From assembly GCF_056746865.1 (NCBI RefSeq), contig NZ_CM163382.1: a stretch of DNA of 64,000 nucleotides; one strand, given 5' to 3'. A program made the position numbers. Below, one piece after another: positions 33,001-36,000 of the stretch; position 1 is the first letter of the stretch, and each line of letters opens with the position of its first letter.

Positions 33001-36000
33001 CGCCTGAATTTCTCAGTGAAGCCCTGAAACTTGCTGAACGCATCGGTGTTGCTGCCGCAGCCCGTGAACTCAGCCTGTATGAATCACAGCTCTATGCGTG
33101 GCGCAGCAAACTGCAGCAACAAATGAGTTCGTCAGAGCGTGAAAGTGAACTGGCCGCTGAAAATGCCTGCCTGAAGCGGCAACTGGCGGAGCAGGCAGAG
33201 GAACTGGCTATCCTCCAAAAGGCCGCGACATACTTTGCGAATCGTCTGAAATGAAGTATGTCTTTATTGAAAAACATCAGGCTGAGTTCAGCATCAAAGC
33301 AATGTGCCGCGTGCTCCGGGTGGCCCGCAGCGGCTGGTATACGTGGTGTCAGCGGCGGACAAGGATAAGCACGCGTCAGCAGTTCCGCCAACACTGCGAC
33401 AGCGTTGTCCTCGCGGCTTTTACCCGGTCAAAACAGCGTTACGGTGCCCCACGCCTGACGGATGAACTGCGTGCTCAGGGTTACCCCTTTAACGTAAAAA
33501 CCGTGGCGGCAAGCCTGCGCCGTCAGGGACTGAGGGCAAAGGCCTCCCGGAAGTTCAGCCCGGTCAGCTACCGCGCACACGGCCTGCCTGTGTCAGAAAA
33601 TCTGTTGGAGCAGGATTTTTACGCCAGTGGCCCGAACCAGAAGTGGGCAGGAGACATCACGTACTTACGTACAGATGAAGGCTGGCTGTATCTGGCAGTG
33701 GTCATTGACCTGTGGTCACGTGCCGTTATTGGCTGGTCAATGTCGCCACGCATGACGGCGCAACTGGCCTGCGATGCCCTGCAGATGGCGCTGTGGCGGC
33801 GTAAGAGGCCCCGGAACGTTATCGTTCACACGGACCGTGGAGGCCAGTACTGTTCAGCAGATTATCAGGCGCAACTGAAGCGGCATAATCTGCGTGGAAG
33901 TATGAGCGCAAAAGGTTGCTGCTACGATAATGCCTGCGTGGAAAGCTTCTTTCATTCGCTGAAAGTGGAATGTATCCATGGAGAACACTTTATCAGCCGG
34001 GAAATAATGCGGGCAACGGTGTTTAATTATATCGAATGTGATTACAATCGGTGGCGGCGGCACAGTTGGTGTGGCGGCCTCAGTCCGGAACAATTTGAAA
34101 ACAAGAACCTCGCTTAGGCCTGTGTCCATATTACGTGGGTAGGATCACATAACCTGAAATGGCACTAATGGCCAGAGCTTACTAATACATAATCCCTACA
34201 GGATGTAGCCACCAGTTTTGTTCATCCGGTATTCTGATTTGGTAACATGCTCCAGAAAGGAAGAAATATGTACTGCAATGAATTAAAAGAATTTGCGCAA
34301 GAGCAGGAACAAAAACTTATCAGTGCGCTTGCTGATACCAGAGAGCACCCGTCCCCCGATGGTGAAACAAGAAGCCGGGATAATTATCAACGGGATTACG
34401 CGCGTATTCTGTATTCATCATCATTTCGCAGGCTGCAGGGAAAGATGCAACTTTTTGAAATTGATCCTGAAAAATTCAACAGAAACAGATTAACGCACAG
34501 TCTTGAGGTTGCTCAGATCGCCCGAAGTATCGCGTCAGACCTCAAACTGATTAACCCGGTGGTGGTTGAACTGGCAGCGCTGGCGCATGACATCGGAAAT
34601 CCTCCTTTCGGTCATTCCGGTGAAAAACTGCTTAATGAACTGTCTGAAGAAATCGGCGGCTATGAAGGTAATGCACAGGCGCTACGTATCCTGAGAAAAC
34701 TGGAGAAGAAATTTTCATACTGCAACGGATTAAATCTGACTCACCGTAGTTTACTTTCGGTTGTTAAGTATCCCATCCCCCGCGCTGCAGCTACTGCCGG
34801 CAAGTTCATTTATGATGATGATTACTATTTTTACATTAACCTGCTTGCTGAAAATCAGCTCGATCTGAATCCCGGAGAGAAAACGATTGATGCGCAGATA
34901 ATGGATCTCGCGGATGAGATTGCCTACGCCGCGCATGACCTGGAAGATGCCCTTAGCAGGAACATGGTCACGATTGAAGATATTGAATATGAGTTTCAGA
35001 TTTCTGACGAATTCCGGGGAGCGAGGGAACAGTTCAGGGAAATCGTTACTCAGTCGAGAAACACCGCTTTTCAGGCTAACTTACTGAAAACCTCAGAAGA
35101 ATTTGCCATCATATTCCGCAAGGAGTTAACTTCAAATATTGTCAATCGCCTCGTTGCAGATATTTCTGTAGTAACGAACCTGAATGGTTTTCAGGAACTG
35201 GGGTTCGGGAAACTGAATGCGTTATCCGAAGGACTCAAAAAACTTCTCTTTAAAGTCATCATGCGAAAACGTAATATCCTCACCTATGAGTTCAGGGGAA
35301 ATAAAATAATCAGGGATTTATATGACTTTTACAATGAAGGAGAGAATTATAAATTTCTGCCTCCTGAACTTAAATTCACCTTACCCCAACCAGATTCCTG
35401 TATATTTGAAATCAGCAAAAAACGAGCAGTGGTTGACTATATTTCAGGTATGATGGATACATTTGCAGTCAAGGAATGGGAAACTCACTGTCTGAAGTAA
35501 CACTGCCGATTACCAGAGGCGCATATTTTCCCGTTATGGTTATTGCGCCTTTATTCCGTTTCGGTGACAGGTTATTTTAAATATTCTGGAAATGCGTTGA
35601 TGGGCAAGAACAATTACCCTGAAAATAAATACAGGAAATGGTTTTCCACAGCAATAACATATCTTATTACAGGTGGTTTGTGCTGGTATATGTTGTGGGC
35701 ATCCGCTATATCTCATTATACTGTTTTACAAAATACGGTACCTGAATGGACAACATATTTTTGCACCGGTATAATCACCGGATCTCTTTCTTTTATTTAT
35801 GCATTTTATATCCGCACCTTTAACAGAACATTAAAGTCTTTATTAAATGCATTCACGGGGGGATTTTGTCTTGGATTTATACTGAGTCCTGATGAATCCC
35901 CTAATGATTTTGATAAAAATCATTAGGGGATTCATCAGTGCTTGACCTTGTTTAAAAGCTGTAATATCGCAATTTACTAACTCAATATCTAAATCCATTG

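What the first reader, a model, noticed from the sequence alone, without database searches (positions are those of the whole stretch)
35888..35953. Near-perfect 23-bp-arm palindrome at the papA truncation point
CTGATGAATCCCCTAATGATTTT-(gat)-AAAAATCATTAGGGGATTCATCAG lies about 15 bp beyond where the papA frame loses homology (near 35953) and overlaps the end of a convergent small ORF. There is no U-tract on either strand, so it is not a classic intrinsic terminator. A long perfect palindrome at a deletion joint may be a recombination scar (hairpin-mediated deletion or inversion-duplication), a protein-binding site, or a hotspot for further rearrangement.
Basis: seen in the sequence. Interest (0 to 1): 0.4.

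Follow-up and report, generated by a model that had tools for sequence, protein, structure and literature searches.

The report
Tn10 excision scar in papA
The palindrome is the well-known 50-bp scar left when the tetracycline-resistance transposon Tn10 is lost by "nearly precise excision"; it marks where Tn10 once split the pilus gene papA, so it is an ordinary, already understood feature.

Summary
The palindrome is real. It has perfect 23-nt arms at 35889-35911 and 35916-35938 around a 4-nt centre GATA, 50 bp in all. Each arm is bp 1-23 of the IS10 outside end, the outermost end of Tn10.

The 50-mer is exactly what forms when the 24-bp subterminal direct repeats of Tn10 (TAATGATTTTG[G/A]TAAAAATCATTA) recombine. 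This is the classical "nearly precise excision" remnant.

Two natural before/after pairs show the process:
- R100 carries Tn10, and an R100-like contig carries the remnant at the same site.
- R621a carries Tn10, and IncI1 plasmids carry the remnant at the same site.
Each pair shares its 9-bp target duplication.

At this locus, 35 E. coli genomes have a full IS10 at the identical junction with papA. Strains D10 and APEC O2-211 show a complete 9147-bp Tn10 inside papA, with duplication TGCTTGACC.

In the window the two flanks differ: TACTGAGTC comes from a truncated membrane-protein gene and TGCTTGACC from papA. The scar therefore sits on a hybrid joint. The likeliest route is recombination between two independent Tn10/IS10 insertions followed by collapse; that left-hand step is inferred. 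More than 40 other genomes show a directly analogous hybrid-flanked remnant.

The joint occurs in 128 complete genomes. It is known biology, unannotated and of low novelty.

The parts
35889..35938 (.). 50-bp Tn10 nearly-precise-excision remnant: two IS10 outside ends head to head around the centre GATA.
   Evidence: One search gives the geometry. It equals the first 23 bp of one Tn10 end plus the last 27 bp of the other, as read in R100 and in papA::Tn10 of D10 and APEC O2-211. The identical 50-mer occurs at independent plasmid sites.
35889..35911 (+). Left arm: IS10 outside end bp 1-23, the transposase-binding terminus, facing left.
   Evidence: Identical to R100 Tn10 L004 10501-10523. The 70-nt IS10 outside end matches 100% in R100 next to the IS4-family (ISVsa5/IS10) transposase gene.
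35912..35915 (+). Centre GATA: the variable 4 nt of the 24-bp subterminal repeat. This is the variant carried by the Tn10 end that abuts papA 5'.
   Evidence: R100, R621a, D10 and APEC O2-211 all have GGTA at one Tn10 end and GATA at the other.
35916..35938 (-). Right arm: IS10 outside end bp 1-23 on the minus strand, with its terminus facing papA.
   Evidence: 35 genomes show a full IS10 at this junction. The junction sequences of D10 and APEC O2-211 are identical to the window.
35939..35947 (+). TGCTTGACC: the retained right-hand copy of the 9-bp target duplication of the papA::Tn10 insertion.
   Evidence: D10 and APEC O2-211 have TGCTTGACC on both sides of the 9147-bp Tn10. Intact papA has TGGTTGACC once at this position.
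35880..35888 (+). TACTGAGTC: native 9-mer of the truncated membrane-protein gene, inferred to be the target site of a second, unobserved IS10/Tn10 insertion. It does not match the right flank.
   Evidence: The intact gene in UMNF18 reads ...TACTGAGTC|tgaactg. Homology to the window stops exactly at 35888.
35600..35926 (+). Truncated hypothetical membrane-protein gene: 96 of 189 codons, followed by 12 codons and a stop supplied by the remnant.
   Evidence: UMNF18 annotates WP_000517677.1, 570 nt, directly after the dGTPase-family gene.
35939..36214 (-). papA 5' fragment: codons 1-92 of 182. The open frame continues through the remnant to 35843.
   Evidence: PGAP annotates 'papA, incomplete, missing C-terminus' in ECCNB12-2. 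The intact allele is in FDAARGOS_1301.
36421..36735 (-). papB regulator gene (intact). Together with papI' (37158-37436, +, cut by ISCR2) it forms the pap remnant that travels with the scar.
   Evidence: Annotation of ECCNB12-2, A1_181 and H8. It is 100% identical over 2360 bp to the segment right of Tn10 in D10 and APEC O2-211.
34268..35500 (+). dGTPase-family gene, giving the left-hand context (pheU island backbone).
   Evidence: The region is 99.96% identical to the UMNF18 island up to 35888.

Best explanation
The palindrome is the 50-bp remnant left by 'nearly precise excision' of transposon Tn10.

How the remnant forms: Tn10 ends in two inverted IS10 copies. Just inside each outer terminus lies the 24-bp sequence TAATGATTTTG[G/A]TAAAAATCATTA, and the two copies are in direct orientation. 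Replication slippage or illegitimate recombination between them, helped by the long inverted repeats, deletes all of Tn10 except 23 + 4 + 23 bp.

History at this locus:
1. Shown: Tn10 inserted into papA at TGCTTGACC, after codon 92.
2. Inferred: an independent IS10 or Tn10 inserted at TACTGAGTC in the small membrane-protein gene downstream of the dGTPase-family gene.
3. Inferred: recombination between these two copies joined the dGTPase side to the papA 5'-papB-papI'-ISCR2 resistance segment. This produced a Tn10 with hybrid flanks.
4. Inferred from sequence, with the same process documented at two other sites: that Tn10 collapsed to the 50-bp scar.
Steps 3 and 4 may have been a single slippage event between the outward-facing ends of the two copies.

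Today the remnant is a passive scar. It truncates both genes. It keeps two transposase-binding termini but no transposase, no promoter and no complete IHF site.
For: Identity of the element:
- The arms equal IS10 outside end bp 1-23, and the centre equals one of the two Tn10 centre variants.
- The 50-mer can be written directly from the R100 Tn10 ends.

Before/after pairs elsewhere:
- R100 has Tn10 with duplication GGCAGAGCG. An R100-like contig has the remnant at the same site with the same duplication, and its flanks match R100 at 1999/2000 and 1000/1000 bases.
- R621a has a 9147-bp Tn10 with duplication TACCAGGTG. pESBL-12 and other IncI1 plasmids have the remnant at the same site with the same duplication.

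This locus:
- 35 genomes have a full IS10 against papA at exactly the window junction, 100% over 300 nt.
- D10 and APEC O2-211 carry a complete tet(B) Tn10 in papA with TGCTTGACC on both sides. GATA is on the papA-5' side, and the papB-papI'-ISCR2 segment to the right is identical.
- The left flank ends exactly at the IS10 terminus, on a 9-mer that is native to the intact gene.

Precedent for mismatched flanks: AR_0089 and at least 41 other genomes have papA3'-TGCTTGACC|remnant(GGTA)|CACTCGGCT...7.8 kb...CACTCGGCT|Tn10|TGCTTGACC-papA5'. That is two Tn10 insertions combined, with one copy collapsed.

Recombinational mosaic: identity between ECCNB12-2 and D10 is about 100% from sul2 to just past ProQ', then drops to about 92%.

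Literature: held papers cite and describe nearly precise excision of Tn10 (Ross et al. 1979; Foster et al. 1981) and its copy-choice mechanism.
Against: - The usual hallmark, identical 9-bp repeats on both sides, is absent here (TACTGAGTC versus TGCTTGACC).
- The postulated IS10/Tn10 insertion in the membrane-protein gene was not found in 5,426 complete E. coli genomes. The left junction with a full IS10 gave 0 hits, and the reciprocal junction with either IS10 or a remnant gave 0 hits.
- The order and number of steps that joined the two flanks are therefore inferred, not observed.
- The original papers describing the 50-bp product could not be read here. That the remnant is exactly 50 bp is from my own knowledge plus the reconstruction from R100.
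Confidence: 0.87

Rival explanations
1. The 50-bp element is a miniature non-autonomous transposon (micro-MITE) that reached this site by its own transposition, mobilised in trans by IS10 transposase.
For: It keeps both transposase-binding termini, bp 7-23 (PMC3159471). The identical 50-mer sits at several unrelated sites, three of them with perfect 9-bp duplications.
Against: - This copy has no target duplication.
- At three of the independent sites, including this one, relatives carry a full Tn10 at the very same junction. In-situ collapse explains these without any mobility.
- The termini are only 4 bp apart, and the IHF site (extending to bp +42) is broken after bp 37. Synapsis of the two ends of one copy is therefore sterically implausible (inference).
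- There is only one copy in the window.
Confidence: 0.03
2. Same scar, different route to the hybrid flanks. A transposase-made adjacent deletion starting from papA::Tn10 (using ends on sister chromosomes) joined the left Tn10 terminus directly to TACTGAGTC in a neighbouring gene, and Tn10 collapsed afterwards.
For: - The junction is flush with the IS10 terminus and lies on a 9-mer resembling the IS10 target preference NGCTNAGCN (own knowledge).
- Strain C 237-04 shows an island in which the dGTPase-family gene and membrane-protein gene lie about 19 kb upstream of a pap operon, in the same relative orientation.
- No insertion in the membrane-protein gene was found.
- IS10 is reported to promote adjacent deletions at low frequency (Roberts et al. 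1991, from memory).
Against: - In the genomes that still have papA::Tn10, the pap island is at pheV and has no dGTPase-family gene nearby, whereas the window island is at pheU.
- The identity profile indicates recombinational mosaicism.
- The AR_0089 structure demonstrates the two-insertion route in the same family of islands.
Confidence: 0.08
3. The palindrome was created de novo at a deletion joint by a hairpin-mediated or inversion-duplication event. Its resemblance to IS10 would then be irrelevant.
For: It lies at a joint between two unrelated sequences.
Against: - An inversion-duplication would make the flanks mirror each other, and they do not.
- Both arms are 23/23 identical to the IS10 terminus.
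- The same 50-mer is found at Tn10 insertion sites on plasmids.
- A full Tn10 occupies this junction in 35 genomes.
Confidence: 0.01
4. The hairpin is a selected functional element, such as a transcription terminator or attenuator, an RNA-stability hairpin for the converging truncated transcripts, or a protein-binding site.
For: It forms a very stable stem (-37.8 kcal/mol as RNA). It lies between two convergent truncated ORFs. The joint is conserved in 128 genomes.
Against: - There is no U-tract and no terminator call.
- Conservation is explained by clonal descent, with 99.9% identity across the whole 950 bp.
- The identical sequence arises mechanically wherever Tn10 is lost.
- Nearly precise excision was originally recognised by relief of polarity (own knowledge), which argues against strong termination.
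- Both flanking genes are dead fragments.
Confidence: 0.01

Closest known systems
Tn10 'nearly precise excision' remnant (Ross, Swan & Kleckner 1979 Cell 16:733; Foster et al. 1981 Cell 23:215; cited)
   Same: The sequence is exactly two IS10 outside-end termini (23 bp each) around the 4-nt centre of the 24-bp subterminal repeat, 50 bp in total. It sits at a site where relatives carry a whole Tn10, and it leaves the interrupted gene non-functional.
   Different: The classical remnant is flanked by the 9-bp target duplication of one insertion. Here the two flanks come from two different target sites, so the third Tn10 excision event (precise excision of the remnant between 9-bp repeats) is no longer possible.
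Hybrid-flanked Tn10 remnant in AR_0089-type E. coli (papA3'-remnant-Tn5393-like segment-Tn10-papA5'), found here
   Same: It derives from the same papA::Tn10 insertion and has the same 50-bp architecture. Its flanks are also mismatched, because two independent Tn10 insertions were combined before one copy collapsed.
   Different: It keeps the opposite papA junction (the 3' side), has centre GGTA instead of GATA, and its partner Tn10 is still present, so its history can be read directly. In the window the partner is gone.
MITEs derived from IS elements (non-autonomous elements made of terminal inverted repeats)
   Same: It consists only of the two terminal inverted repeats of an IS and lacks a transposase gene.
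   Different: At 50 bp it lies at the low extreme of the 50-500 bp range quoted for MITEs. The ends are 4 bp apart, this copy has no target duplication, and nothing indicates amplification or movement. Documented copies are explained by in-situ collapse of Tn10.
Rho-independent terminator or REP-type extragenic palindrome
   Same: It is a stable GC-containing hairpin between convergent reading frames.
   Different: It has no U-tract, is not a member of a dispersed chromosomal repeat family, and its sequence is transposon-derived.

Membership tests
Tn10 nearly-precise-excision remnant | Both arms identical to the IS10 outside-end terminus (bp 1-23), in inverted orientation with termini outward | tested here: met
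   23/23 on both arms against the R100 Tn10 ends. A 70-nt outside end is 100% in R100 next to the IS10 (ISVsa5) transposase gene.
Tn10 nearly-precise-excision remnant | Junction lies within the 24-bp subterminal direct repeat, giving 23+4+23 = 50 bp with centre GGTA or GATA | tested here: met
   The window centre is GATA and the total is 50 bp. The repeats TAATGATTTTGGTAAAAATCATTA and TAATGATTTTGATAAAAATCATTA are read in R100, R621a and D10.
Tn10 nearly-precise-excision remnant | Complete Tn10 present at the same junction in related DNA (parent state) | tested here: met
   For the right junction, 35 genomes have a full IS10, and D10 and APEC O2-211 have a 9147-bp Tn10 in papA. For the left junction, no parent was found.
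Tn10 nearly-precise-excision remnant | Flanked by the 9-bp target-site duplication of the parental insertion | tested here: not met
   TACTGAGTC versus TGCTTGACC. The duplication is met at three other remnant sites. The mismatch is explained by hybrid flanks, as directly seen in AR_0089. One copy of the papA duplication is retained.
Tn10 nearly-precise-excision remnant | Arises by transposase-independent, RecA-independent slippage or copy-choice stimulated by the long inverted repeats | not testable with these tools
   This is a mechanism from the literature (own knowledge of Foster et al. 1981). It would need genetic assays.
IS-derived MITE | Flanked by a target-site duplication generated by its own insertion | tested here: not met
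   The flanks differ.
IS-derived MITE | Multiple dispersed copies attributable to transposition rather than to decay of full elements in place | tested here: not met
   There is a single copy in the window. Of the five distinct remnant sites examined, three have a full Tn10 at an identical junction in relatives, one is a second derivative of the same papA::Tn10, and the IncK2/Z plasmid site was not checked.
Intrinsic (Rho-independent) terminator | GC-rich stem-loop immediately followed by a U/T tract | tested here: not met
   There is no T run after the stem on either strand, and the scan does not report it.

The most novel reading that the evidence does not exclude
The remnant may not be inert. 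Each arm is a complete IS10 transposase-binding terminus. In cells that carry active IS10, which is common in this lineage, an arm could pair with a distant IS10 end. The result would be new composite transposons or deletions that move or reshape the adjoining papA'-papB-papI'-ISCR2-floR-tet(A)-strAB-sul2 resistance block. On this reading, 50-bp Tn10 scars act as cryptic, unannotated recombination handles in resistance islands. Three observations are compatible with this but do not show it:
- hybrid-flanked scars occur in two independent derivatives of papA::Tn10;
- the block has been copied onto an NDM-5 plasmid;
- APEC O2-211 has an outward-facing IS10 end 19.8 kb away.
Probability: 0.07. 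Interest if true: 0.45.

Novelty: already known. Interest (0 to 1): 0.22.

Why it matters
The practical value is in annotation and genome forensics.
- The scar is invisible to standard annotation. PGAP lists 'none' under it in every record examined.
- It dates and orders events in a widespread chromosomal resistance island of E. coli: Tn10 entered papA, independent insertions recombined, and tet(B)/Tn10 was later lost while floR, tet(A), strAB and sul2 stayed.
- It shows that the loss of P fimbriae in this lineage was caused by a transposon rather than by a spontaneous deletion.
- Recognising the 50-mer, with centre GGTA or GATA, gives a simple search key for former Tn10 sites in genomes and plasmids. 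With this key many IncI1 plasmids turn out to be descendants of an R621a-type Tn10 insertion.

It does not reveal a new mechanism.

Tried and rejected
- Species-representative genomes: I searched for the 50-mer with a free centre. The only hit was a 4.9-kb contig labelled Streptomyces that is really R100-like plasmid DNA. It was useful as a before/after pair but gave no survey of distribution.
- Left-hand intermediate: I searched for a full IS10 against ...TACTGAGTC and found 0 genomes.
- Reciprocal junction: I searched for an IS10 or remnant against TACTGAGTC plus the 3' part of the gene and found 0 genomes. This rules out a simple inversion between two Tn10 copies that kept both products.
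- Single-island deletion: strain C 237-04 has the dGTPase-family gene and membrane-protein gene about 19 kb from a pap operon in the right orientation. However, the papA::Tn10 genomes have pap at pheV with no dGTPase-family gene, and the window island is at pheU. A simple local deletion is therefore not supported.
- Plasmid origin of the pap fragment: the only plasmid with the joint, pNDM5_LS003, also carries the chromosomal dGTPase-family gene. It is therefore a derivative, not a source.
- Literature: the original Cell papers, the Genetics 1985 paper and the Tn10 sequence paper are not held. Searches for an IS10-derived MITE or for this pap/Tn10 locus found nothing relevant; the 'IS10' hits were IS101.
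- Count caveat: (megablast) cannot seed GGTA-centre remnants, so its figure of 150 genomes covers only GATA-centre copies.
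Full report
**1. The observation**

The window contains a perfect inverted repeat. Its arms are 35889-35911 and 35916-35938, 23 nt each and 100% complementary, with 4 nt (GATA) between them. The whole element is 50 bp.

The 23-mer occurs nowhere else in the 64 kb, and it appeared in none of 100 shuffles. The stem is very stable: -24.7 kcal/mol as DNA and -37.8 kcal/mol as minus-strand RNA, with z-scores of about -10. It is not followed by a T/U run, and the terminator scan does not call it.

The same 950-bp region, palindrome included, is 99.9% identical in 128 complete E. 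coli genomes from many laboratories. Three of these were read directly. It is therefore not an assembly artefact.

- The palindrome is perfect, not near-perfect.
- The spacer is 4 nt.
- papA homology reaches the palindrome itself rather than ending about 15 bp away.

**2. What the arms are**

The arm sequence is the terminal 23 bp of the IS10 outside end, which is the outermost end of Tn10. I first recalled this from memory and then tested it.

A 70-nt outside-end sequence matches 100% in plasmid R100, next to the IS4-family (ISVsa5 = IS10) transposase gene of a complete tet(B) Tn10. Reading the two outer ends of that Tn10 gives the following:
- One end: CTGATGAATCCCCTAATGATTTT-GGTA-AAAATCATTAAG...
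- The other end: ...CTTAATGATTTT-GATA-AAAATCATTAGGGGATTCATCAG

Just inside each terminus Tn10 therefore carries the 24-bp sequence TAATGATTTTG[G/A]TAAAAATCATTA, in direct orientation and identical at 23 of 24 positions. A crossover or slippage between the two copies leaves exactly 23 + 4 + 23 = 50 bp with centre GGTA or GATA. The window 50-mer is the GATA product.

This is the event described as 'nearly precise excision' of Tn10 (Ross et al. 1979; Foster et al. 1981). Held papers cite it, describe it as involving internally located repeats, and attribute it to a copy-choice mechanism. The original papers are not held. That the classical remnant is 50 bp rests on my own knowledge plus the reconstruction above.

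**3. Natural before/after pairs**

- *R100.* R100 has Tn10 with the 9-bp duplication GGCAGAGCG. A 4.9-kb contig, labelled Streptomyces morookaense but really R100-like DNA, is collinear with the R100 flanks at 1999/2000 and 1000/1000 bases. It has the 50-bp remnant (centre GGTA) in place of Tn10, between the same 9-bp repeats.
- *IncI plasmids.* The IncI plasmid R621a has a 9147-bp Tn10 between psiA and ardA with duplication TACCAGGTG. pESBL-12 and many other IncI1 plasmids have the 50-bp remnant (centre GATA) at the same site with the same duplication.
- *A further plasmid site.* An IncK2/Z Shigella plasmid has a further copy with a perfect duplication, TGTTAAGTT.

The element is therefore a recurrent, mechanically produced scar.

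**4. This locus, right side**

On the minus strand to the right lie papA codons 1-92, then papB, then a papI cut by ISCR2, and then a floR-tet(A)-strAB-sul2 region.

An intact papA of the same allele (FDAARGOS_1301) reads ...TTTTTAGC TGGTTGACC TTGTTT... at this point, with no palindrome.

A synthetic query made of 150 nt of IS10 end plus 150 nt of the window's papA flank matched 35 genomes at 100% over all 300 nt. In strains D10 and APEC O2-211 the structure is as follows:

papC-papH-papA3'-TGCTTGACC|Tn10 (9147 bp, tet(B))|TGCTTGACC-papA5'-papB-papI'-ISCR2

GGTA is at the left Tn10 end and GATA is at the end that touches papA5'. The 2360 bp to the right of Tn10 are 100% identical to the window lineage.

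The right arm, the centre GATA and the adjoining TGCTTGACC of the window are therefore inherited from this specific papA::Tn10 insertion.

**5. This locus, left side**

To the left lies a dGTPase-family gene, followed by a 189-codon hypothetical membrane-protein gene. In UMNF18 that gene is intact and reads ...TACTGAGTC|TGAACTG....

The window is 99.96% identical to UMNF18 up to 35888 and then runs straight into the IS10 terminus. The gene is cut after codon 96 and reads 12 codons into the scar.

The 9 bp on the two sides of the scar differ (TACTGAGTC versus TGCTTGACC). The scar therefore joins two different target sites.

A junction flush with an IS10 terminus is the signature of transposase. 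I therefore infer that an IS10 or Tn10 once sat at TACTGAGTC. Both 9-mers resemble the IS10 target preference NGCTNAGCN (own knowledge).

I could not find that intermediate. No complete E. coli genome has a full IS10 at the left junction. None has the reciprocal junction with the 3' part of the gene, with either IS10 or a remnant.

**6. How mismatched flanks arise: an observed precedent**

The last search found 18 genomes with a full IS10 against papA3'. It also found at least 42 genomes in which papA3'-TGCTTGACC is followed by a 50-bp remnant with centre GGTA.

In AR_0089 the full structure is as follows:

papA3'-TGCTTGACC|remnant|CACTCGGCT-strA-strB-aph(3')-Ia-tnpA-tnpR-IS1133...CACTCGGCT|Tn10|TGCTTGACC-papA5'

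The 7.8-kb Tn5393-like segment is bracketed by its own 9-bp repeat, CACTCGGCT. Two independent Tn10 insertions were therefore combined into Tn10-X-Tn10, and the left copy then collapsed to a scar whose flanks do not match.

The window is most simply the same kind of product. A Tn10 or IS10 in the membrane-protein gene recombined with papA::Tn10, and the resulting hybrid-flanked Tn10 underwent nearly precise excision. Alternatively, one slippage event occurred between the outward-facing ends of the two copies.

Three further observations fit a recombinational mosaic rather than a simple local deletion:
- Identity between the window lineage (ECCNB12-2) and D10 is about 100% from sul2 through IS1 and ProQ', and then drops abruptly to about 92% inside the next backbone gene.
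- The papA::Tn10 island of D10 is at pheV with no dGTPase-family gene, the window island is at pheU, and the UMNF18 island is at leuX.
- Strain C 237-04 does carry the dGTPase-family gene and membrane-protein gene about 19 kb from a pap operon in the right orientation. A transposase-made adjacent deletion therefore remains a minor rival.

**7. What it does now**

Nothing suggests a function. The scar retains the transposase-binding segments (bp +7 to +23). The IHF site, which extends to bp +42 in a real outside end, is broken after bp 37 (PMC3159471).

It carries no transposase gene and no terminator tail, and no promoter-like site overlaps it. Its conservation is clonal.

Because its flanks do not match, it cannot be removed by recombination between 9-bp repeats. 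A plasmid copy of the region (pNDM5_LS003) lacks one arm plus 4 nt. This is either palindrome decay or an assembly error.

**8. Verdict**

The mechanism is wrong: it is a transposon remnant, not a de novo hairpin product.

The element belongs to a kind known since 1979, so the novelty rating is 'already known' and interest is low. Its value is forensic and for annotation.

The least ordinary reading still open is that such scars remain usable IS10 ends that help to reshape resistance islands. I put its probability at about 7%.

Noticed in passing
L012 (NZ_OP290546 pNDM5_LS003) 8957-9004; corresponds to window 35889-35947: An IncI-gamma/K1 NDM-5 plasmid carries a copy of the chromosomal dGTPase gene, truncated gene, scar, papA'BI', ISCR2 and floR block. 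The right arm of the palindrome plus TGCT (27 bp, window 35916-35942) is missing and there is no microhomology. This is either real decay of the palindrome or an assembly error.
   Followed up: partly
L013 (NZ_JABBXF010000164.1, 'Streptomyces morookaense' contig164): This 4.9-kb contig is more than 99.9% identical to the flanks of Tn10 in the enterobacterial plasmid R100. It is almost certainly contaminating plasmid DNA in a Streptomyces assembly. It carries the GGTA-centre Tn10 scar.
   Followed up: yes
L021/L022/L023 (AR_0089, Res13-Lact-ER02-39); papA region: At least 42 complete E. coli genomes carry papA3'-scar(GGTA)-Tn5393-like (strAB, aph(3')-Ia, tnpA/R, IS1133)-Tn10-papA5'. The inserted segment is bounded by its own 9-bp repeat, CACTCGGCT. 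This is a second, independent derivative of the same papA::Tn10.
   Followed up: yes
L016 (APEC O2-211) 5004-24833: An extra IS10 sits 9.4 kb to the right of Tn10 with its outside end facing outward. The left Tn10 terminus and this end therefore bracket a 19.8-kb potential composite transposon containing Tn10, papA'BI', ISCR2 and sul2.
   Followed up: no
window 47932-47933 and 47933-64000: Collinearity with ECCNB12-2 (99.4% up to 47932) ends inside the C-terminal remnant of an IS3-family transposase. Beyond it lie a 1291-aa autotransporter (48254-52129, minus strand), an AbgT-family transporter, a ROK regulator, a glycerophosphodiesterase, an ABC transporter and sodC. The window strain therefore has a further IS-mediated rearrangement at the right edge of the resistance region.
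   Followed up: partly
window 1-35500: The left 35 kb is a pheU-associated island. It contains an integrase, raffinose-type sugar genes, a phosphoethanolamine transferase, a type I restriction-modification system with an AAA ATPase, a DEAD/DEAH helicase, a MazG-like protein, an XRE regulator, a thymidylate synthase and a dGTPase-family protein. This nucleotide-metabolism and restriction cluster looks like an anti-phage defence neighbourhood.
   Followed up: no
window 37158-37436 and 37360 onward: papI is fused to and cut by a truncated ISCR2, followed by floR, tet(A)/tetR, strB-strA and sul2. D10-type genomes have the same papI'-ISCR2 joint but a shorter module (glmM'-sul2). The floR-tet(A)-strAB part was therefore gained in the window lineage or lost in the D10 type.
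   Followed up: partly
All records examined (for example): RefSeq/PGAP and PLSDB annotate nothing under any of these 50-bp Tn10 scars. Many IncI1 plasmids carry the R621a-site scar, which marks them as descendants of a Tn10-bearing ancestor.
   Followed up: partly
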